IMG/VR virus record: IMGVR_UViG_3300045391_003833
Location: 1-63,541 of that record
Source: a virus
DNA: 63,541 bases
Direction: 5' to 3' (one strand)
Part shown: positions 1,498 through 63,541 of the stretch, piece by piece
Layout of the letters: every line of letters starts with the position of its first letter
How positions within the stretch are numbered: position 1 is the stretch's first letter
Program-made: the position numbers and the translations under genes
The notes under the pieces: generated by a model
What the model saw: only the letters and a program-made list of their open reading frames with translations
Databases searched by the model: none
What the model was told of the DNA's origin: nothing

Positions 1498-1925
1498 TGA
1501 CTATTACCACATCACAATTGGTTGATTTATTAAGACCGGGTTGGAATGCGTATTGTGACGCTCTTCAGAATGATAAGAAATTTAGAGCAAAAGTATTGCG
1601 TGAGATAAGAAGAGATAAGAAAAGAGAGGCTTTGATAGAGGAAGCTATTAAGAGAGTTTCTGAAGAGGAAGGAGATGCTTTTGCGAAAGGGTTTGAGCAT
1701 TACAGAAGTATTATTCAAAAAGCTTTGGCAATTATTGACAAGGGTTACAGAAAAGATCCGGAACGTTTTTACATTGATGAAGAGCTGATGAAATGGGAAG
1801 GTCTTTATGACGATCCAATTATAAACTACGGGGATTGTCACATATTCTTAGATAAACATCAGTTTAGGTTATTTTACTTAATAGCGGTTGCTAAGGGATA
1901 TATTAAGCCTAAAAAAAGTACTTGA
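1497..1925 (+). CDS. hypothetical protein (142 aa)
   Basis: ORF track; coupled to upstream ORF; its TGA stop lies inside the TTGACA of the next promoter. Confidence 0.55.
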   Translation: MTITTSQLVDLLRPGWNAYCDALQNDKKFRAKVLREIRRDKKREALIEEAIKRVSEEEGDAFAKGFEHYRSIIQKALAIIDKGYRKDPERFYIDEELMKWEGLYDDPIINYGDCHIFLDKHQFRLFYLIAVAKGYIKPKKST

Positions 1926-1950
1926 CAACGTATGTACATATGTTATTATT
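1922..1950 (+). promoter_or_regulatory. Sigma70-type phage promoter P1 (TTGACA-17-ATTATT) with ACGTATGTA spacer element
   Basis: TTGACA 1922-1927, 17-bp spacer acgtatgtacatatgtt, ATTATT 1945-1950. About 25 nt are identical to the promoter at 49195. Confidence 0.7.
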
Positions 1951-1951
1951 C

Positions 1952-2487
1952 GATAGCTGTCTATCCAAGCTCCCTGAGTTTGACCAATTGAAAGCGATTC
2001 TCCTTGCTAAGTAGATACTCTCATAGTAATGGATAGACAGCTACATCAAATGTGATTCTTTGTTTGGGTTGTCCCGCATGTTTTGGGTTCAGGCACACCC
2101 GCTGTGATTCTGGATGAGGGATCACATCTGATGTGATTATTTGTCGGAAGTAAAGTCCTGCCTCATACCAGGGGAATGCAGGTGAAAATCCTGTCTGTTG
2201 TGCTCCTTACACTTCGACAGTAACTTAATACGATGAATAAGGCGGTGAAGTAGTCGTACGCCGATAAGTAGTCACATCAAATGTCCAATCCATGGAATGG
2301 AAGGCCGTCGTAAATAGCTTGATGGCATCAAGCTGCTATTGTATGTGGATACTGTGCTGTCTCCACGTTTGATCAACTGACGCCTCCAGGTGTGTGCACG
2401 CATCGGTAAGCTGAAATAAATGTATGTGCGCTATCAGCATTTATGGTTCCATGGGGTTGGATATTTTACTTTTATAGGAGATAGGGA
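1952..2487 (+). ncRNA. Candidate large structured non-coding RNA or long structured leader (about 530 nt), class unknown
   Basis: No ORF of 60 aa or more in any frame. Lies immediately downstream of P1. Visibly more G+C-rich than its flanks. Contains a 14-bp perfect long-range helix (1954-1967/2030-2043) plus several other helices and repeated motifs. Confidence 0.4.
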
Positions 2488-2895
2488 ATGTCGGATATGA
2501 TTAGTTTATTAAGGCCAGCTTTTGATAAATACGACAGAGAATGGTTTAGGTCAAAGCTAGAGGTGCCTTATAAGGGAGAAAAGTTTGATGAAGAATTTCA
2601 GTGTAGAGGTCCAGATTTTAAGGTAAAAAAAGGGAAGTGGTTTCATTTTATCAATCCAGTTCCATATTATATTGTTTATCCTAAACTTTCAAAGTATCCT
2701 GACTGTATTAAAAGAGAGATGGAGGACTTTATCGAGCAGTGTGTAGAGAGACTAAATAAAAAGATTAAGAGACGTAAATATAATGGGGCGTTTGTTAGGG
2801 ATTTTAAGATAGATATAGCTGGTGACTATTTAAGTGGCGATTTAATGATTGGTGTATACTTTAGGGTCAGCGTTGGAAGGGTAGAGGAAAAATAG
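2488..2895 (+). CDS. hypothetical protein (135 aa), first gene of the RNA ligase operon
   Basis: ORF track; SD ataggagatagggaATG; no motif recognised. Confidence 0.6.
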   Translation: MSDMISLLRPAFDKYDREWFRSKLEVPYKGEKFDEEFQCRGPDFKVKKGKWFHFINPVPYYIVYPKLSKYPDCIKREMEDFIEQCVERLNKKIKRRKYNGAFVRDFKIDIAGDYLSGDLMIGVYFRVSVGRVEEK

Positions 2896-2899
2896 GTTT

Positions 2900-3424
2900 A
2901 TGCTAGAAAAGTATTGGGAGCCGGCAAAATATGAAAAAGCCATTTATGATAAATGGGAAAGATCTGGATGTTTTGATGCTAAGATAGAAACGCCCATAGA
3001 AGACATAGGCGACTTAAAAAGACAAAGGCAAATATTAAAAGAAAAGATTTCTCAGGTAGAAAAGTTTGTTAAAGATACATTTACTGATGAGTACGTTCTT
3101 TTAAGATTATCTTTTAAGAATGAGGTTGGTGACCATGCCATGATGCATCAGGTTTTTACAAAAAATAAAGTATCGTATCGTTTTTTTTATGATGAATTAA
3201 ATGACATTAACAATATATGCGCTATAATTAGCGATATAGTGGAAAAGGAGATTGAACGAGTAAATTTATTTGTTAAGAATAATGTTTTTAGTAAGGTTCG
3301 AGTTAATGGTATTTTTTTTGATATTTGGGACGAGTTTCCAAATGGTTTTACTCCTACAATTTGTTTTGAGTTTGGTTATACATTGGCTAGAAAAAATGAT
3401 GATAGGACTATATGGGGTAAATAA
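2900..3424 (+). CDS. hypothetical protein (174 aa) whose first ~27 residues resemble a class Ia aminoacyl-tRNA synthetase (ValRS/LeuRS) N-terminus
   Basis: LEKYWEPAKYEKAIYDKWERSGCFDA compared with remembered E. coli ValRS [26 protein letters not shown]. No HIGH motif follows. Confidence 0.55.
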   Translation: MLEKYWEPAKYEKAIYDKWERSGCFDAKIETPIEDIGDLKRQRQILKEKISQVEKFVKDTFTDEYVLLRLSFKNEVGDHAMMHQVFTKNKVSYRFFYDELNDINNICAIISDIVEKEIERVNLFVKNNVFSKVRVNGIFFDIWDEFPNGFTPTICFEFGYTLARKNDDRTIWGK

Positions 3425-3427
3425 GTT

Positions 3428-4603
3428 ATGTTAGGTTGTGGTTTGTATGGAATGTTAGAACATTACGTTGATAAAGGTCTCGTACGTAAGTGTGAGATGG
3501 ATAACCTAGTTTTGTATAAGTACACAGAAAAATGTGTGTACTGTAAAGGATGGTACAAAGAAACTAGACTTGCAAGGGGTCTTATCCTTAACAAGGATAC
3601 TGGTGAGATAGTGGCTCATCCTTTCCCGAAGTTCTTTAATCTTAATGAGATGCCGGAGAGTAGTTATAACGAGATAATAAAGCATAAGGAATATGAAGTT
3701 TACGATAAGCTAGATGGAAGTCTTGGAATAAGCTATTTACATAATGGGATAGTAAAGATTGCCACTGTTGGTAGTTTTGTGAGCGAGCAGGCTGTTGAAG
3801 CAACAGATATATTGCTTGAATTGTATCAAGGAGCTGCTAGGGCAATAGAGAAGTATGACGGTATTACTTTTCTTTTTGAAATAATTTACCCTTCAAATAA
3901 GATAGTGTGTGATTATAAGGGAAAAAGGGAGTTAGTGTTATTAGCTGCTTTTAGATATAAAAGTGCTTTTGATTTGGATATTGGATATGAATTTCCCCGC
4001 GAATGGTTATATCGTTTTTCCGAGACATATGGAATACCAATTGTAGAAAAACTAAATTACACAATAGATGAGATGATAGCTTTACAGAAAACTCTCCCTA
4101 AAGACAAAGAGGGTTTTGTAGTAAGGTTCCCAAATGGTCTTAGGGTTAAGTTTAAAGGTGAGGAGTACTTGCGGATTCATAAGCTTGCTACTGAGTGTTC
4201 TCCTTTATCTGTGTGGGAGAATATGAAGTATGGGAAGGTTCCTTTAGAGGTAACTATGAATATTCCCGAGGAATATTTGGAAGAGTTTAAAGAGATAGAG
4301 AAACAATTGATATCTCAATATTGGACAGTATATGGAGAGGTGACAGAGGAATTTATTCGTAACTTTTCGGAATATTATAGATCTAATGCTGAATGGGAAG
4401 GAGATAGATTAGTATTTAACTATACTCCTACGCCTGAGGAGCGAAAAGAAGTGGGTTTAAAAATAAAGAATAATCCTGATAAGTTTAAACATGCTTCTTG
4501 TATGTTTCCTTTAATTCTGGATAAAGTAGAGTCAGTAGATAAGTACGTAATGGATTATATTAGGCCAAAGGCAAATAAACTTGATGGGTTAGATGTGGAG
4601 TAA
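3428..4603 (+). CDS. RNA ligase, T4 Rnl1-like (tRNA repair-type ATP-dependent ligase)
   Basis: KxDG motif I (VYDKLDGSLG), FLFEIIYP, EGFVVRF and VKFKGEEY motifs. PFPKFFNLNE and GSFVSEQA match remembered T4 Rnl1 PMEKFFNLNE and GSIKSEQA. Length of 391 aa is similar to T4 Rnl1. Confidence 0.8.
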   Translation: MLGCGLYGMLEHYVDKGLVRKCEMDNLVLYKYTEKCVYCKGWYKETRLARGLILNKDTGEIVAHPFPKFFNLNEMPESSYNEIIKHKEYEVYDKLDGSLGISYLHNGIVKIATVGSFVSEQAVEATDILLELYQGAARAIEKYDGITFLFEIIYPSNKIVCDYKGKRELVLLAAFRYKSAFDLDIGYEFPREWLYRFSETYGIPIVEKLNYTIDEMIALQKTLPKDKEGFVVRFPNGLRVKFKGEEYLRIHKLATECSPLSVWENMKYGKVPLEVTMNIPEEYLEEFKEIEKQLISQYWTVYGEVTEEFIRNFSEYYRSNAEWEGDRLVFNYTPTPEERKEVGLKIKNNPDKFKHASCMFPLILDKVESVDKYVMDYIRPKANKLDGLDVE

Positions 4604-4608
4604 ATGCT

Positions 4609-4824
4609 ATGAAGGTTAGTGTAGAGACAAAGGTTACGATTGAGGTTATGGAACGTAGTATGATGCCTTGGTTAGAGGCTTCTAAGGTTATGGCTAAGAT
4701 TATGAAGAAAAAGAATGATGACATTATGAAGACTAAAGAGATAATGAAGGCTTTTAAGGATGCTGGGTTAGTAGATATGGAAGAAGCTGAAAAGCGTTCA
4801 AAGGGTTGTTGTGTAATTTTATAG
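4609..4824 (+). CDS. hypothetical protein (71 aa)
   Basis: ORF track; co-oriented tight tiling. Confidence 0.5.
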   Translation: MKVSVETKVTIEVMERSMMPWLEASKVMAKIMKKKNDDIMKTKEIMKAFKDAGLVDMEEAEKRSKGCCVIL

Positions 4825-4834
4825 GAGCGATGGT

Positions 4835-5650
4835 ATGAATTTTCAAGAAATTTGGATGTGTGTTAAGTATCCGCTTGCTTTTAGCTTTGTAGCTATAGTT
4901 AGTGTTTTGACCTTTGCAAAGTTGAGACGTGATGCCAAGGATGCTGAGGAAATGCAAAAAGAGATTGAAAAAGATCCTCTTTTTAAAAAGTCTGTAGTTA
5001 AATCAGGTAAATGCACTACCTTTTCTGATCTTAAAGTAACTCCTCCTGAAGGTGTAACTTATAAATGGTGTAGGTTGTACAGAGGTGGTGAGTCTTATGG
5101 GGGTGGGGTTTGCTTAGATGAGAATCGGATTAAGAAGGTTATTGGGGATGGTTATTATCCTGTGCCTTATGAGAGACATCAGGATGTGACTGAGACATTG
5201 GACCCTAAGAAGCTTTCGATACAGTTGGATGGATTTATCTTGGTTCAAGATAAACCATTGGTTGGGATAGAGGATAAGGATGATAGTTTGACAAAGGTTA
5301 TAGAAGGAGAAGTAGGAGCATATTTGACCACAAAAGAAGTAATGGATAATGTGGCCGATCACAGCGCTAGAATGAATGCAGCTCTTTTAAGTGGCCTTGT
5401 AGAAAAAAAGAACATACTAGAAGGAGAGGTATTGCCACCAGAGCAAGAGGAATTAAACCCTGTTGTGGAGGGATGTAAACAATATTGGAAAGAATGCAAA
5501 GAAAAAAACAAAACCATAGACGTTGTTCCTGAAAAGGCTCCTGATTACAAGAAGATGATAGAAGAGTCTATAGAGAATAAGGATGCGCATATTCATATTG
5601 AGGGTGCGCATGATGGGATGCAGTTTAAGTTAGACATAAAGAGCGAGTAG
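4835..5650 (+). CDS. hypothetical membrane-anchored protein (271 aa)
   Basis: ORF track; N-terminal hydrophobic helix YPLAFSFVAIVSVLTFAKL. Confidence 0.55.
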   Translation: MNFQEIWMCVKYPLAFSFVAIVSVLTFAKLRRDAKDAEEMQKEIEKDPLFKKSVVKSGKCTTFSDLKVTPPEGVTYKWCRLYRGGESYGGGVCLDENRIKKVIGDGYYPVPYERHQDVTETLDPKKLSIQLDGFILVQDKPLVGIEDKDDSLTKVIEGEVGAYLTTKEVMDNVADHSARMNAALLSGLVEKKNILEGEVLPPEQEELNPVVEGCKQYWKECKEKNKTIDVVPEKAPDYKKMIEESIENKDAHIHIEGAHDGMQFKLDIKSE

Positions 5651-6019: not shown

Positions 6020-6733
6020 ATGTTAACCTTTATAAAAGTCGTATTTATAACTTTATTTCTGATATATCCATTTTCGGTCAAAGGAAATGAATTCTTATTC
6101 GAAAACCTACGTCCATACTTTGGCTTAGATGTCCAAATCCGGTCCATGAAGTACATGGAAGGCATGGGGGATAACCTATTTAAGCCAAAATCTCCTCAAG
6201 GCAACATCTATGCAGGTCTTAGGCTTAACGATTACGTTGGGATAGAGGCAGGCTATGAAACTACTCCTATGAGGACTAGAGGAGTGGAAATACAAGCTGG
6301 AGAACGCTCTCTTGGTCTATCTCCCATGCTACCACCTGAAAAACATCTTACCAAGTCCAAGATCAAAGGCTGGCATGGGGCAATTATTGGGTTTTTCCCA
6401 ATAGTTGATCGGGCAGACGGTAAGCTAGAGGCTATGGGCTACATTGGAACGATAAGGCTGAAGGTGTTTAACCAAGACATATTGTTTGCGAACAAAAGTG
6501 GTCCTTTGAATATTCTAACAACCAGTCGAACGTTTGTTTCAAGGAAGTCTCTCTTAAAACTAGGAGCTGGTTTTCAATATACCGTGAACCATACCGGTTT
6601 TCGATTTATGCTTGGATATGAAAACAGCAAACGGTTTAACCGAATGGCTCCAAACGAGAATGCAAAGAGCCAGAAAAGACTGGGGATAAAGAACTCGTTC
6701 CTGATGGGGATTGGATTTTTTGTTGTGATTTAA
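6020..6733 (+). CDS. Outer-membrane beta-barrel protein (OMP_b-brl/OmpA-like barrel), signal peptide; moron cargo
   Basis: N-terminal signal sequence MLTFIKVVFITLFLIYPFSVKG. Alternating beta-strand pattern. Paralogous to 7562..8107 (YFGLDVQIRSM / YGGLELQVRDM; GIEAGYE / SLEAGAN). Confidence 0.65.
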   Translation: MLTFIKVVFITLFLIYPFSVKGNEFLFENLRPYFGLDVQIRSMKYMEGMGDNLFKPKSPQGNIYAGLRLNDYVGIEAGYETTPMRTRGVEIQAGERSLGLSPMLPPEKHLTKSKIKGWHGAIIGFFPIVDRADGKLEAMGYIGTIRLKVFNQDILFANKSGPLNILTTSRTFVSRKSLLKLGAGFQYTVNHTGFRFMLGYENSKRFNRMAPNENAKSQKRLGIKNSFLMGIGFFVVI

Positions 6734-7561: not shown

Positions 7562-8107
7562 TTAGAAAGTCTTGATAACTCCAAGGCTATAAGAGGTACT
7601 ATCTTTCGACCGTACAAAGCTGTCTTTCAGCTTCTTGGTCTTTTCATGGGCTACAGAGGCTCTAATATCTAATCCATCTAAAATGGAGTATTGCAAGCCA
7701 ACCAATCCCCTAGGAACGACCTTCTTTAGCTTACTCTGCTTAAGTTTAGCTGCATTATGATAGGTTGCGCTTACTCTAGCAGCTCCAAGCCCACCCAATA
7801 ATGTGACCTTGTTACTTAATGGATAATGCCCAATAGCACCTAAATGCACAGCATTTGACTTGTGAAAGTTTTTGCTTTTGTGAGTAAACCTGCAAATGTT
7901 AGCCCCAGCTTCTAAACTAACGTTCTCATGTACTTTAACACCAGCTAAAATATTAGGCTGTAAGGCAGCAGGTGAAAAAACACCAATATTACCGTCTCTT
8001 ACTCCCATATCACGGACTTGAAGCTCTAATCCGCCATAAATAGATGGGTCGTTTGCTTTAGCCCCAAAAGGCAAAATCAATAAAAGAATTGCTACTAATC
8101 GTTTCAT
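7562..8107 (-). CDS. Outer-membrane beta-barrel protein (8-strand OmpA/OmpW-like size), signal peptide, C-terminal Phe
   Basis: Signal peptide MKRLVAILLLILPFGAKA. Ends in GVIKTF, an OMP C-terminal signature. SD GGGAG lies upstream. Confidence 0.7.
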   Translation of the reverse strand: MKRLVAILLLILPFGAKANDPSIYGGLELQVRDMGVRDGNIGVFSPAALQPNILAGVKVHENVSLEAGANICRFTHKSKNFHKSNAVHLGAIGHYPLSNKVTLLGGLGAARVSATYHNAAKLKQSKLKKVVPRGLVGLQYSILDGLDIRASVAHEKTKKLKDSFVRSKDSTSYSLGVIKTF

Positions 8108-37598: not shown

Positions 37599-37793
37599 AT
37601 GTTAGTTTTAAGCAGGATGGTAGGACAAGGAGTTACTTTAAATCTTCCCAATGGGGAAACGGTTAAGCTCAAGATATTGACTTACAAAGGTCCCCATACC
37701 CAAATCGGGATCATTGCCCCGAAATCCGTCATTATTCTAAGGGACGAACTAGTGAAACAACACGAAAATTATTCCCAGGGAATAAATGCTTGA
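37599..37793 (+). CDS. csrA: CsrA/RsmA-family RNA-binding translational regulator homologue (64 aa)
   Basis: MLVLSRMVGQGVTL...TQIGIIAPKSVIILRDEL aligns with remembered E. coli CsrA MLILTRRVGETLMIG...VRIGVNAPKEVSVHREEI, including the GxxxIGIxAP core and the critical Arg. SD aaaggagacaaggaATG. Confidence 0.85.
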   Translation: MLVLSRMVGQGVTLNLPNGETVKLKILTYKGPHTQIGIIAPKSVIILRDELVKQHENYSQGINA

Positions 37794-42642: not shown

Positions 42643-42719
42643 TGGTCAAGGTGGTGGGATTTGAACTCACGGCCCTCTGCTCCCAAAGCAGATGCTCTAC
42701 CAGGCTGAGCTACACCCTG
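42643..42719 (-). tRNA. tRNA-Pro (anticodon UGG), CCA encoded
   Basis: Manual cloverleaf on the reverse complement: CAGGGTG/TA/GCTC-AGCCTGGTA-GAGC/A/TCTGC-TTTGGGA-GCAGA/GGGCC/GTGAG-TTCAAAT-CCCAC/CACCTTG/A/CCA. There is one A-C mismatch in the T stem. Confidence 0.8.
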
Positions 42720-45526: not shown

Positions 45527-45611
45527 GGATGGGTGTCAGAGTGTTTATTGAGACGGACTGTAAATTCGTTGGTTTATGCTATCGTAGGTTAAAATCCTAC
45601 CCCATCCACCA
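45527..45611 (+). tRNA. tRNA-Tyr (anticodon GUA), long variable arm, CCA encoded, non-canonical D and T loops
   Basis: Manual fold: GGATGGG/TG/TCAG-AGTGTTTA-TTGA/G/ACGGA-CTGTAAA-TTCGT/TGGTTTATGCTATC/GTAGG-TTAAAAT-CCTAC/CCCATCC/A/CCA. The T loop is TTA rather than TTC and the D loop lacks GG. Confidence 0.7.
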
Positions 45612-55676: not shown

Positions 55677-55752
55677 CCTCGTGTAGCTCAGTTGGTAGAG
55701 CAGCTCCTTGTTAAGGAGAAGGTCCGTGGTTCGAGTCCACGCGTGAGGGCCA
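55677..55752 (+). tRNA. tRNA-Asn (anticodon GUU), CCA encoded
   Basis: Manual fold: CCTCGTG/TA/GCTC-AGTTGGTA-GAGC/A/GCTCC-TTGTTAA-GGAGA/AGGTC/CGTGG-TTCGAGT-CCACG/CGTGAGG/G/CCA. Layout matches remembered E. coli tRNA-Asn. Confidence 0.85.
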
Positions 55753-62832: not shown

Positions 62833-63541
62833 GTGTATATACCCGAAATTATAATTGCAAACGAAATTGCGACCGAAAGGGAGTGGATTACGGAATACCT
62901 TAGTCGATTGAAGGCTGAGGAGTCATTCTATGAGTTTGTAAAACAGGCATGGGAGTATGTAGAAGGTCCGAAGAGGCCATATTCTGACAATTGGCACATG
63001 AAGGCATTGTGCGATCATCTTCAAGCGATATATGAGGGTGATCTAAAGTGTCTTTTGATTAATCTGCCTCCTCGTTGTTCTAAGTCCCTTGTGATGTGTG
63101 TCTTTTTCCCGGCTTGGGTATTTCTCAAAGCTCCTCATTTGCGTATCTATTGTTCTTCTCATTCGAGATCGCTTTCTTTGCGAGACTCTATTAGATGTAG
63201 GGCTCTTATTGGGTCAGATTGGTATCAGGCGCGGTGGGGAGATAGGTTCTTTATAAAGAAGAACATTGATAGCCAGATTAAGTTTGAGACAAATGCGGGG
63301 GGATTCAGAGAGTGTACATCGGTAAAGTCTAAGACAACAGGTAACGAAGGTGACATATTACTTTTGGATGATCCAAATAATGCTATCGATGCTGAATCCG
63401 ATGTTAAACGAAATAGCATCAATGAATCTTATGCCGCAGGCTGGAGTAATAGGTTAACTAGCTATGATACTGGGCGTTCTGTGGTCGCTCAACAAAGAAC
63501 TCATCAAATGGATGTGTCTGGGTATATTTTGGAAAACGATC
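62833..63541 (+). CDS. terL: Terminase large subunit, N-terminal ATPase part (runs off the window end and continues at 1..992; about 543 aa in total)
   Basis: Open frame from the TAG at 62758-62760. The GTG at 62833 is the first conventional start, with a weak SD. Walker A-like LPPRCSKS and Walker B ILLLDDP. 640 nt + 992 nt = 1632 nt, which is in frame. Confidence 0.85.
   Translation, partial: MYIPEIIIANEIATEREWITEYLSRLKAEESFYEFVKQAWEYVEGPKRPYSDNWHMKALCDHLQAIYEGDLKCLLINLPPRCSKSLVMCVFFPAWVFLKAPHLRIYCSSHSRSLSLRDSIRCRALIGSDWYQARWGDRFFIKKNIDSQIKFETNAGGFRECTSVKSKTTGNEGDILLLDDPNNAIDAESDVKRNSINESYAAGWSNRLTSYDTGRSVVAQQRTHQMDVSGYILEND
63473..63541. repeat. Second copy of the 69-bp terminal overlap
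   Basis: Identical to 1-69. Confidence 0.95.

What the first reader, a model, noticed from the sequence alone, without database searches (positions are those of the whole stretch)
1922..2487. Promoter-driven, ORF-free, helix-rich region of about 530 nt: candidate large structured RNA of unknown class
Genes in this genome usually overlap by 1-4 nt, yet 562 bp between the stop at 1925 and the ATG at 2488 carry no ORF of 60 aa or more in any frame. Only ATG ORFs of 15 codons or fewer, without SD sequences, are present.

The region starts right after a consensus early promoter (TTGACA-17-ATTATT, 1922-1950) and looks more G+C-rich than its flanks.

I can read many helices:
- a 14-bp perfect long-range pair, 1954-1967 with 2030-2043
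- 2050-2058 with 2119-2127 (9 bp, one G-U)
- 2157-2161 with 2178-2182
- 2316-2324 with 2326-2334
- 2346-2350 with 2362-2366
- 2416-2422 with 2438-2444

The palindromic 11-mer ACATC-NN-ATGT occurs three times (2043-2053, 2124-2134, 2274-2284). The middle copy lies within the perfect palindrome TCACATC-T-GATGTGA (2122-2136). TGTGATT also occurs three times (2051, 2103, 2132).

The region sits directly upstream of an Rnl1-type RNA ligase operon. Its size and phage context recall the large ornate RNAs (ROOL and GOLLD classes) that are often phage-borne and near tRNA genes. I cannot confirm membership of any class by eye.
Basis: partly seen in the sequence, partly recalled or inferred. Interest (0 to 1): 0.75.

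Follow-up and report, generated by a model that had tools for sequence, protein, structure and literature searches.

The report
New large structured phage RNA
The 562-base gene-free gap encodes a roughly 510-nucleotide, heavily folded RNA whose helices are kept by matching mutations in three related uncultivated phages; it fits no known RNA family and its job is unknown.

Summary
Window 1926-2487 is the largest true ORF-free gap of a 63.5-kb circular phage genome. It follows the best sigma-70-type promoter in the first 9 kb.

Two diverged copies exist, in phages with TerL 82-85% identical (L009, L010). The three copies fold into the same chain of stem-closed domains: P1, H2, H3 and a multi-helix 3' domain.
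- About 32 of roughly 150 base pairs show two-sided compensatory changes, against 0-3 in slid-partner controls.
- The plus strand folds much better than the minus strand.
- The element is 56-79% identical, while four-fold degenerate sites of neighbouring genes are only 33-50% identical.
- The ORFs next to it have been swapped.

No Rfam 15 family matches any copy, so it is not ROOL, GOLLD, an intron, a riboswitch, tmRNA or RNase P. The ACATC..ATGT repeats are strands of RNA helices, not DNA operators.

Function is inferred, not shown. I think it is most likely a discrete stable RNA released at a conserved terminal helix plus U-tract, with read-through into the variable ORFs and the Rnl1 ligase operon.

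Weak points: only three variants, no expression data, unknown host.

The parts
1920..1949 (+). Promoter. Conserved 17-mer ACTTGACAACGTATGTA (1920-1936) containing the -35 TTGACA (1922-1927), and an extended -10 TGtTATTAT (1941-1949). An A-rich tract lies just upstream. The predicted start is about 1955-1956.
   Evidence: Scores 11/12 with TG, the best + strand hit in 9 kb. The 17-mer is present 4 times exactly in the window, all on the + strand, against 0.16 expected. It is conserved in L009 and L010. The start site is inferred from spacing only.
1954..2043 (+). P1 domain. A 14-bp closing helix (1954-1967/2030-2043) encloses 1969-1971/2025-2027, 1975-1978/2020-2023 and hairpin 1993-1997/2004-2008. 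The conserved strings are CAAGCUCCCUG and AUAGUAAUG.
   Evidence: Perfect inverted repeat. In the three-sequence alignment A4, 95.2% of cells are paired. Eleven pairs show two-sided changes, against 4.7 in shuffles (0/500) and 0-2 in slid controls. The domain is tandemly duplicated in L009.
2050..2127 (+). H2 domain. An 18-bp helix (2050-2068/2109-2127) with an inner 2075-2078/2103-2106. It is present in the window and L009 and absent from L010.
   Evidence: 100% paired, with several G-U to A-U changes. L010 goes from P1 to H3 with a 4-5 nt linker.
2129..2279 (+). H3 domain. A 19-bp helix (2129-2147/2261-2279) encloses a variable interior with hairpins 2156-2160/2169-2173, 2178-2182/2190-2194, 2195-2202/2210-2220 and 2229-2234/2253-2258.
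   Evidence: The helix is kept in all three copies, with five pairs changed on both sides and 0 in every slid control. The interior hairpins are supported by window/L009 compensations. The interior is about 38 nt in L010 against 113 nt here.
2284..2461 (+). 3' domain, closed by P4 (2284-2298/2446-2461). It contains P5 (2299-2309/2379-2387), P6 (2315-2322/2328-2335), P7 (2345-2349/2362-2366, weak and absent from L010), P8 (2389-2394/2399-2404, invariant UGCA loop) and P9 (2416-2428/2432-2444, the most conserved stretch).
   Evidence: In alignment A3, 95.7% of cells are paired. Ten pairs show two-sided changes, against 4.3 in shuffles (0/500) and 1-3 in slid controls. Covariance model R1 scores 154-214 bits on the three copies and finds nothing else. 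The P9 region is 87% identical between the window and L010.
2462..2474 (+). U-rich tract UAUUUUACUUUUA directly after the 3' strand of P4. UAUUUU is kept in all three copies. It is a candidate termination or processing point.
   Evidence: Alignments. Sequence similarity between the phages ends here. The terminator scan does not call it, because the 'loop' is a whole domain. Its function is inferred.
2475..2490 (+). Shine-Dalgarno AGGAGA and the ATG (2488) of the first downstream ORF. This ORF is not conserved among the three phages and must be expressed by read-through.
   Evidence: The downstream 135-aa and 174-aa ORFs have no counterpart in L009 or L010.
3428..4603 (+). Rnl1-type RNA ligase. 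It is the first downstream gene conserved in all three phages (context, not part of the RNA).
   Evidence: Pfam RNA_lig_T4_1, E 7.8e-22; PHROG 562; 63% amino-acid identity to the L009 and L010 ligases.

Best explanation
The gap encodes a + strand RNA of about 510 nt (roughly 1955 to 2461-2470). It is transcribed from one of four identical strong phage promoters.

**Architecture (shown).** The RNA folds into a chain of independently closed domains. P1 sequesters the 5' end. H2 and H3 are two long, sequence-related helices, and H3 encloses a variable insert. The 178-nt 3' domain is a multi-helix junction closed by P4. Promoter and RNA behave as a self-contained, modular cassette:
- Whole domains are duplicated or lost between phages.
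- The genes on either side are swapped.
- The helices and a few sequence strings stay fixed: CUCCCUG, AUGGAAGGCC/GAYGCCUCC, the UGCA loop and the P9 hairpin.

**Mechanism (inferred).**
- The RNA acts as RNA in its own right. It is a stable, abundant species whose 3' end is made by partial termination or processing at the conserved UAUUUU tract after P4.
- Its repeated modules serve as binding sites for a protein or other partner, as a scaffold or decoy.
- The polymerases that read through express the variable ORFs and the Rnl1 RNA-repair genes.
For: **Shown.**
- Homologues exist in two phages.
- Compensatory changes exceed shuffled and slid controls in every block: 11, 8, 10 and 5 pairs.
- Each sequence folded alone gives the same domain chain, with z-scores of -7.9 (L009) and -5.4 (L010) on the + strand against -3.5 and -2.3 on the - strand.
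- Consensus folding energy is far better on the + strand: -72/-40/-24 against -35/-23/-19 kcal/mol.
- 25 of 147 pairs are G-U.
- RNA identity is 56-79%, against 33-50% at four-fold degenerate sites of TerL and Rnl1.
- Flanking ORFs are replaced while the promoter and RNA stay.
- The promoter motif occurs 4 times in the genome. The other three copies have leaders of only 40-80 nt.
- The first helix starts at the predicted start site in all three copies, and UAUUUU follows P4 in all three.
- The P1-like module is duplicated in L009, and H2 and H3 share sequence.

**Inferred.** The start and end points, the stability of the RNA, action in trans and partner binding.
Against: - Only three distinct variants exist, so formal R-scape-type statistics are not possible.
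- There are no expression data and the host is unknown.
- There is no canonical short-loop terminator at the 3' end.
- There is no room for a separate promoter before the ATG at 2488. The RNA is therefore at least also the 5' leader of the downstream operon.
- No partner protein has been identified.
- No GNRA-type tertiary motifs typical of ornate RNAs were noticed.
- For the window copy alone, the unconstrained minimum-energy fold differs in part from the consensus (-170.3 against -158.7 kcal/mol constrained). Its z-score is only -2.85.
Confidence: 0.5

Rival explanations
1. It is purely a cis-acting 5' leader of the operon that ends in the Rnl1 RNA-repair genes. The structured domains would protect the long mRNA from 5'-end-dependent decay. 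Alternatively, they would set read-through or translation of what follows, through an attenuator or processive-antitermination element, or through RNase III processing sites in the long helices. No separate RNA would have a role.
For: - The downstream ORF starts 27-38 nt after P4 in all three phages, with no intervening promoter.
- An Rnl1 gene always follows within 1-1.5 kb.
- No canonical terminator is called at the 3' end.
- The 5' end sits in a helix, as in known mRNA stabilisers.
Against: - The genes immediately downstream are unrelated in the three phages, so no gene-specific regulation is conserved.
- The other three copies of the same promoter manage with 40-80 nt leaders.
- A phage with a 64%-identical Rnl1, preceded by RtcB and RlaP, lacks the RNA.
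- 500 nt of sequence-constrained, modular structure is far more than known stabilisers or put-type elements need (established knowledge).
- No conserved alternative, mutually exclusive pairing was found.
Confidence: 0.3
2. It is a DNA-level element, such as a replication origin, packaging site or operator cluster. The inverted and direct repeats would be protein-binding sites or cruciforms.
For: - The ACATC..ATGT motif is over-represented and includes a perfect 7-1-7 palindrome.
- The element lies about 0.9 kb downstream of the terminase gene.
- There is one 8/9 DnaA-box-like string at 2342-2350 (read directly from the sequence).
Against: - L010 loses the palindrome but keeps the helix by compensatory changes.
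- 17% of pairs are G-U, which would be A-C mismatches on the other strand.
- Folding is strongly strand-asymmetric.
- There is no GC-skew switch here.
- The DnaA-like string is not conserved in L009.
- The long-range helices span up to 180 nt.
Confidence: 0.04
3. It is decayed or unconventional coding sequence. One option is a small conserved peptide (MYVRYQHLWFHGxGYF, ATG 2420). Another is a gene read with a different genetic code.
For: A 16-codon frame starting at 2420 is conserved in all three phages.
Against: - Stops of all three kinds occur in all frames.
- There is no Shine-Dalgarno sequence before the frame in L009, and the ATG is GTG in L010.
- Substitutions in the frame are not biased to third positions. 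Those at codons 12-13 are matched by changes 160 nt upstream in the other strand of P4, which only RNA pairing explains.
- The peptide frame covers under 10% of the conserved region.
Confidence: 0.03
4. It is a diverged member of a known RNA class: ROOL, GOLLD, OLE, raiA, HEARO, a group I or II intron, a cobalamin riboswitch, 6S RNA, RNase P, tmRNA, phi29 pRNA or a CsrB-type sponge.
For: - Its size and phage location resemble ROOL and GOLLD.
- The local string GGGAAUGCAGGUGAAAAUCC looks like part of the cobalamin or group II D1 consensus (E 3.4).
- The phage encodes a CsrA homologue.
Against: - No Rfam 15 model reaches even E<1 on any of the three copies, and the weak hits differ between copies.
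- ARAGORN finds nothing in the region.
- The GGUGAAAAUCC hairpin lies in the H3 interior, which L010 lacks.
- GGA is not enriched (11 against 8.4 expected), and no GGA sits in a hairpin loop.
Confidence: 0.03

Closest known systems
ROOL (RF03087) and GOLLD (RF01998) large ornate RNAs
   Same: They are 500-800 nt long, multi-domain and often carried by phages or prophages. Their function is unknown, and they are defined only by conserved structure.
   Different: No covariance-model match. The element is not next to tRNA genes. It has an extremely narrow distribution, with three phage variants. It is built as a linear chain of closed hairpin domains with no obvious tertiary-contact motifs. Its oligomeric state is unknown.
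Promoter-proximal cis-acting phage RNAs (HK022 put, lambda nut leaders) and 5' mRNA stabiliser hairpins (for example the ompA leader)
   Same: They lie immediately downstream of a phage promoter, are co-transcribed with an operon, and have a 5'-terminal helix.
   Different: Those elements are 30-120 nt long (knowledge). This one is about 510 nt, modular and sequence-constrained. It is kept while the downstream genes change.
CsrB/RsmZ-type protein-sponge RNAs
   Same: They have a repeated-module architecture and are several hundred nt long. The phage encodes a CsrA homologue at 37599-37793.
   Different: The defining feature, many GGA motifs in hairpin loops, is absent.
ColE1 RNA II pre-primer
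   Same: It is a promoter-driven, multi-hairpin, non-coding transcript of about 550 nt.
   Different: There is no evidence of an origin, no antisense RNA I-type promoter of note, no skew switch, and replication genes lie elsewhere.
phi29 pRNA
   Same: It is a phage-encoded structured RNA, and here the element is near the packaging ATPase gene.
   Different: There is no RF00044 match. The terminase here is a classical TerL with a nuclease domain. pRNA is 120-174 nt long (knowledge).

Membership tests
Conserved structured RNA (generic definition) | Base pairs are maintained by compensatory substitutions in homologues, above control levels. | tested here: met
   Two-sided changes against shuffles and slid controls: A4 11 (4.7; 0-2), A3 10 (4.3; 1-3), A5 8 (3.9; 0-1), A10 5 (2.3; 0). 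Only 2-3 sequences per alignment.
Conserved structured RNA (generic definition) | The structure is strand-specific and the sequence is under purifying selection. | tested here: met
   z-scores and alifold energies favour the + strand. RNA identity is 56-79% against 33-50% at four-fold degenerate sites.
Conserved structured RNA (generic definition) | It is transcribed as a discrete RNA. | not testable with these tools
   There is only a predicted promoter and a conserved U-tract. No transcript data are available.
ROOL / GOLLD | A match to the family covariance model at or near the gathering score. | tested here: not met
   No hit at E<=10 in the window, L009 or L010 copies.
ROOL / GOLLD | Usual location next to tRNA genes in phage or prophage DNA. 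| tested here: not met
   The three tRNA genes lie at 42.6, 45.5 and 55.7 kb. The element is at 2 kb.
Other Rfam classes (OLE, raiA, HEARO, group I/II introns, cobalamin and other riboswitches, 6S, RNase P, tmRNA, pRNA, self-cleaving ribozymes) | A covariance-model match. | tested here: not met
   Only chance-level hits that differ between copies: IsrR E 1.3, group-II-D1D4-4 E 3.4, snoRNA/miRNA/purine E 2-7. ARAGORN finds no tmRNA or tRNA in the region.
Sigma-70-type promoter | -35 and -10 hexamers with a 16-18 nt spacer. | tested here: met
   TTGACA-16-TATTAT with an upstream TG, 11/12. It is part of a 17-mer repeated 4 times. Activity is untested.
Intrinsic terminator at the RNA 3' end | A G+C-rich hairpin with a short loop, directly followed by a U run. 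| tested here: inconclusive
   A conserved UAUUUU follows the 15-bp helix P4. However, P4 closes a 147-nt domain, and the scan calls no terminator there.
CsrB/RsmZ sponge | Many GGA motifs exposed in hairpin loops. | tested here: not met
   11 GGA against 8.4 expected. All those within the RNA lie in or at the edges of helices.
DNA operator or iteron array | The motif sequence itself is conserved in homologues. | tested here: not met
   ACATC..ATGT is absent from L010, while pairing is kept by A-U to G-C changes.
Type III toxin-antitoxin antitoxin RNA (ToxI-like) | Tandem direct repeats of about 34-45 nt upstream of a toxin gene. | tested here: not met
   No tandem repeats are present, only dispersed 16-22 nt repeats that form helix strands.

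The most novel reading that the evidence does not exclude
This is a previously undescribed class of large phage RNA that works in trans as a multivalent scaffold or decoy.
- It could bind and titrate a host RNA-binding or RNA-cleaving defence factor.
- It could assemble into a homo-oligomeric particle as ROOL and GOLLD do. The invariant self-complementary UGCA loop of P8 and the duplicated modules would suit this.
- It is carried as a mobile promoter-plus-RNA cassette in front of a hypervariable gene slot and RNA-repair genes.
Probability: 0.25. Interest if true: 0.8.

Novelty: new variant of a known kind. Interest (0 to 1): 0.62.

Why it matters
Bacterial and phage RNAs longer than about 400 nt with conserved structure and no known function are few: OLE, GOLLD, ROOL, HEARO, raiA and a handful more. 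Each one that has been solved has revealed unexpected biology, such as RNA-only cages and guide RNAs.

This element adds a new, well-delimited example. It has a defined promoter, defined ends, a modular domain plan and clear compensatory evolution. It sits in an uncultivated phage lineage whose nearest cultured relative has a TerL only 38% identical. It lies next to RNA-repair genes that phages use against host anticodon nucleases.

The element also shows that a promoter-plus-RNA cassette can be the stable unit while the flanking protein genes turn over.

The covariance model and the coordinates given here make a database-wide search and wet-lab tests straightforward.

Tried and rejected
**Known RNA families.**
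- Rfam at gathering score on the whole window, and at E<=10 on the region, a sub-region and both homologues, gave nothing.
- A cobalamin-riboswitch or group II D1 resemblance of GGGAAUGCAGGUGAAAAUCC was recalled by eye. It is not supported by the covariance models, and that segment is absent from L010.

**Searches for more copies.**
- BLAST of the region and its flanks against 50,697 phage records gave no match.
- IMG/VR scans with the two flanking proteins, Rnl1, TerL, a TerL alignment and a p94 alignment gave no close relatives; only 35-48% relatives without the RNA.
- The P9 motif pattern gave 0 hits in IMG/VR, JGI metagenome contigs and GTDB genomes.
- The P5 pattern gave 0 hits in IMG/VR. 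It gave 11 and 14 hits in the metagenome and GTDB collections, about the number expected by chance. All were rejected by covariance model R1.
- nhmmer and model R1 were run on all fetched loci, including TerL relatives of 53-66% identity and an Rnl1 relative of 64%. No further copy was found.

**Alternative functions.**
- Antisense targets elsewhere in the phage genome: only chance-level matches.
- CsrA-sponge idea, prompted by the phage CsrA gene: rejected on GGA content and position.
- Small-peptide reading of the ORF at 2420: rejected as the main explanation (see rivals).
- Origin or pac reading: rejected (see rivals).

**Literature.** Searches for a described equivalent, for phage CsrA/sponge pairs and for the sample accessions found nothing relevant.
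Full report
**1. What the window is**

The window is a JGI metagenome contig, 3300037511 Ga0400237_0000050. Its last 69 nt repeat its first 69 nt, so it is a circular phage genome of 63,472 nt. The terminase large-subunit gene spans the junction, from 62833 round to 992.

Identical copies of the locus occur in four other samples. The nearest cultured phage has a TerL only 38% identical.

A Pfam sweep of 105 ORFs gives the following:
- SU10-type adaptors and a Mu-gpT-like capsid protein;
- OmpA-like barrels, patatin, SPFH and PnuC;
- a VRR-NUC nuclease and an Rnl1 ligase;
- notably, a CsrA homologue at 37599-37793.

**2. The observation**

The 562 nt between the TGA at 1923-1925 and the ATG at 2488 have stops of all three kinds in all six frames. 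This is the largest real ORF-free gap in the genome. G+C rises to 0.44-0.465 from 0.33-0.37 in the flanks.

*The promoter.* It reads TTGACA-16-(TG)nTATTAT and scores 11/12. It is embedded in a 17-mer, ACTTGACAACGTATGTA. That 17-mer occurs exactly four times in the genome, always on the + strand, against 0.16 expected. The other three copies sit 40-80 nt upstream of start codons. Only this copy has a 530-nt leader.

- Five of the six helices stand.
- The sixth is replaced by two better-supported local hairpins.
- The ACATC..ATGT triple is real.
- The statement that only ORFs of 15 codons or fewer are present is slightly wrong.

**3. Homologues**

Nothing similar exists in 50,697 phage records or in IMG/VR.

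A TerL protein search led to two informative relatives:
- L009 (Logan SRR25660878), TerL 85% identical;
- L010 (JGI 3300067034), TerL 82-83% identical.

Both have a gap at the same place, between small ORFs after TerL and an Rnl1 operon. Both gaps begin with the same promoter 17-mer, and both align with the window region.

Phages with TerL at 47-66% identity, and one with Rnl1 at 64%, lack the element. Pattern scans of the metagenome and GTDB collections returned either nothing or chance hits that the covariance model rejected. The family is therefore known from three distinct sequences only.

**4. Selection**

Four-fold degenerate sites of TerL and Rnl1 are only 33-50% identical among the three phages, which is close to saturation.

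The non-coding element is far better conserved:
- 73-79% identical between the window and L009;
- 56-72% identical to L010 over alignable columns;
- 87% identical over the P9 region, the best-conserved nucleotide stretch of the whole locus against L010.

Meanwhile the flanking genes turn over. The 135-aa and 174-aa ORFs downstream have no counterpart in L009 or L010. The 142-aa ORF upstream is missing from L010. The conserved unit is promoter plus RNA.

**5. Structure**

RNAalifold on three blocks, and independent single-sequence folds of L009 and L010, give the same plan. Window coordinates:

| Element | Pairing | Note |
|---|---|---|
| P1 | 1954-1967/2030-2043 | inner helices included |
| H2 | 2050-2068/2109-2127 | absent from L010 |
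| H3 | 2129-2147/2261-2279 | encloses four small hairpins; interior is short in L010 |
| P4 | 2284-2298/2446-2461 | closes the 3' domain |
| P5 | 2299-2309/2379-2387 | |
| P6 | 2315-2322/2328-2335 | |
| P7 | 2345-2349/2362-2366 | weak |
| P8 | 2389-2394/2399-2404 | invariant UGCA loop |
| P9 | 2416-2428/2432-2444 | most conserved |

L009 carries an extra 5' domain (2550-2646). It is a diverged tandem copy of the P1 module and includes the strings ACUCCCUG and CAUAGU..UGAUAGA.

*Pair counts.*

| Alignment | Region | Cells paired | Pairs with two-sided change | Shuffle mean (shuffles reaching observed) | Slid controls |
|---|---|---|---|---|---|
| A4 | P1 domain | 95.2% | 11 | 4.7 (0/500) | 0-2 |
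| A3 | 3' domain | 95.7% | 10 | 4.3 (0/500) | 1-3 |
| A5 | H2+H3, two sequences | 100% | 8 | 3.9 (2/500) | 0-1 |
| A10 | H3 stems, three sequences | 94.7% | 5 | 2.3 (8/500) | 0 |

On the window sequence, the consensus has 147 pairs, of which 25 are G-U.

*Strand specificity.*
- Consensus energies on the + strand are -40.2, -23.5 and -72.1 kcal/mol. On the reverse complement they are -23.0, -19.4 and -34.9.
- Single-sequence z-scores, + against - strand, are -7.9/-3.5 (L009), -5.4/-2.3 (L010) and -2.85/-2.34 (window).

The structure is therefore that of a + strand RNA, not a DNA cruciform and not a - strand transcript.

**6. The repeats explained**

The ACATC..ATGT and TGTGATT repeats are strands of helices:
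- the 5' strands of H2 and H3 are direct repeats of one another;
- the 3' strand of H2 abuts the 5' strand of H3, and this junction produces the perfect palindrome at 2122-2136.

In L010 the motif is gone (GGUGUGG/CCACACC instead of GAUGUGA/UCACAUC), but the helix is intact. This excludes a DNA operator reading.

**7. Ends of the RNA (inferred)**

With a -10 element ending at 1949, transcription should start near 1955-1956, the first base pair of P1. The first helix likewise begins at the predicted start in L009 and L010.

The 3' strand of P4 is followed in all three copies by UAUUUU. Similarity between the phages stops there. An unrelated ORF begins 27-38 nt later.

Both ends are thus tucked into helices. 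A conserved U-tract marks a plausible termination or processing point. It is not a canonical terminator, however, because P4 closes a 147-nt domain.

**8. What it is not**

- No Rfam 15 family matches any copy, and no tRNA or tmRNA is found in the region.
- It has no antisense target in the phage genome.
- It is not a CsrB-type sponge, despite the phage CsrA gene: GGA occurs 11 times against 8.4 expected, never in a hairpin loop.
- A conserved 16-codon frame at 2420 exists, but RNA pairing explains it better. Its variable codons 12-13 covary with the P4 5' strand 160 nt upstream. L009 also has no ribosome-binding site before it.
- The large phage csRNA catalogue (PMC10690425) was built from IMG/VR, which holds no copy of this element.

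**9. Most likely mechanism**

*Shown:* a conserved, modular, + strand RNA structure under purifying selection, placed behind a conserved strong promoter.

*Inferred:*
- It accumulates as a discrete RNA of about 510 nt, ending at the U-tract.
- Read-through feeds the variable ORFs and the RNA-repair genes. These are Rnl1 here; L010 also has an intein-containing RtcB.
- Its duplicated modules and invariant strings are binding sites for a partner.

I put 0.5 on this reading and 0.3 on a purely cis-acting leader. The remainder goes to DNA-level, coding or known-class explanations. That a structured RNA is encoded here at all I put at about 0.9.

**10. Novelty and limits**

It is a new class within a known kind: large structured bacterial and phage RNAs of unknown function.

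The main limits are three variants only, no expression data, no host, and no formal covariation statistics.

Noticed in passing
window 37599-37793 (+): A 64-aa CsrA-family RNA-binding protein is encoded right after the tail-fibre gene (Pfam CsrA E 2.9e-11; 35% identical to E. coli CsrA). A TerL relative also carries one (L018 4520-4756, - strand).
   Followed up: partly
window 1920, 8198, 41381, 49193 (+); L009 2513 and 9097; L010 3918: An identical 17-mer, ACTTGACAACGTATGTA, preceded by an A-tract, heads four transcription units. It is invariant across phages whose silent sites are saturated. The -10 parts differ between copies, so the conserved ACGTATGTA(GG) after the -35 may be a site for a phage factor. 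It could also be a non-sigma-70 promoter.
   Followed up: partly
window 62833-63541 joined to 1-992: The window ends overlap by 69 nt, so the genome is circular at 63,472 nt. The 543-aa TerL gene is split by the window boundary.
   Followed up: yes
L010 7091-9247: The relative carries an RtcB ligase interrupted by an intein, downstream of Rnl1. Several TerL relatives (P0045, P0062; about 890 aa) also carry Hint/intein domains.
   Followed up: no
L013 3092-7179: A phage from the same sample series has an RlaP-RtcB-Rnl1 RNA-repair cluster, with Rnl1 64% identical to the window's, but without the structured RNA.
   Followed up: partly
window 2488-3424 vs L009 3160-3875 vs L010 about 4339-4948: The two ORFs between the RNA and Rnl1 are unrelated in the three phages. 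This is a hypervariable gene slot that starts exactly at the end of the RNA.
   Followed up: partly
L010 4260-4670: The gene call in L010 starts inside the conserved P9 hairpin, fusing the RNA's 3' part to the next ORF. The real start is probably the ATG at 4339.
   Followed up: partly
whole window: TGTGATT occurs 10 times on the + strand, while its reverse complement AATCACA never does. The cause is unknown and may simply reflect strand skew.
   Followed up: no
window 42643-42719 (-), 45527-45611 (+), 55677-55752 (+): There are three tRNA genes (Pro-TGG, Tyr-GTA, Asn-GTT). tRNA-Pro is on the strand opposite to almost all other genes.
   Followed up: no
window 6020-6733 (+) and 7562-8107 (-): OmpA-like beta-barrel outer-membrane proteins are encoded by the phage and its relatives. 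This suggests a Gram-negative host.
   Followed up: no
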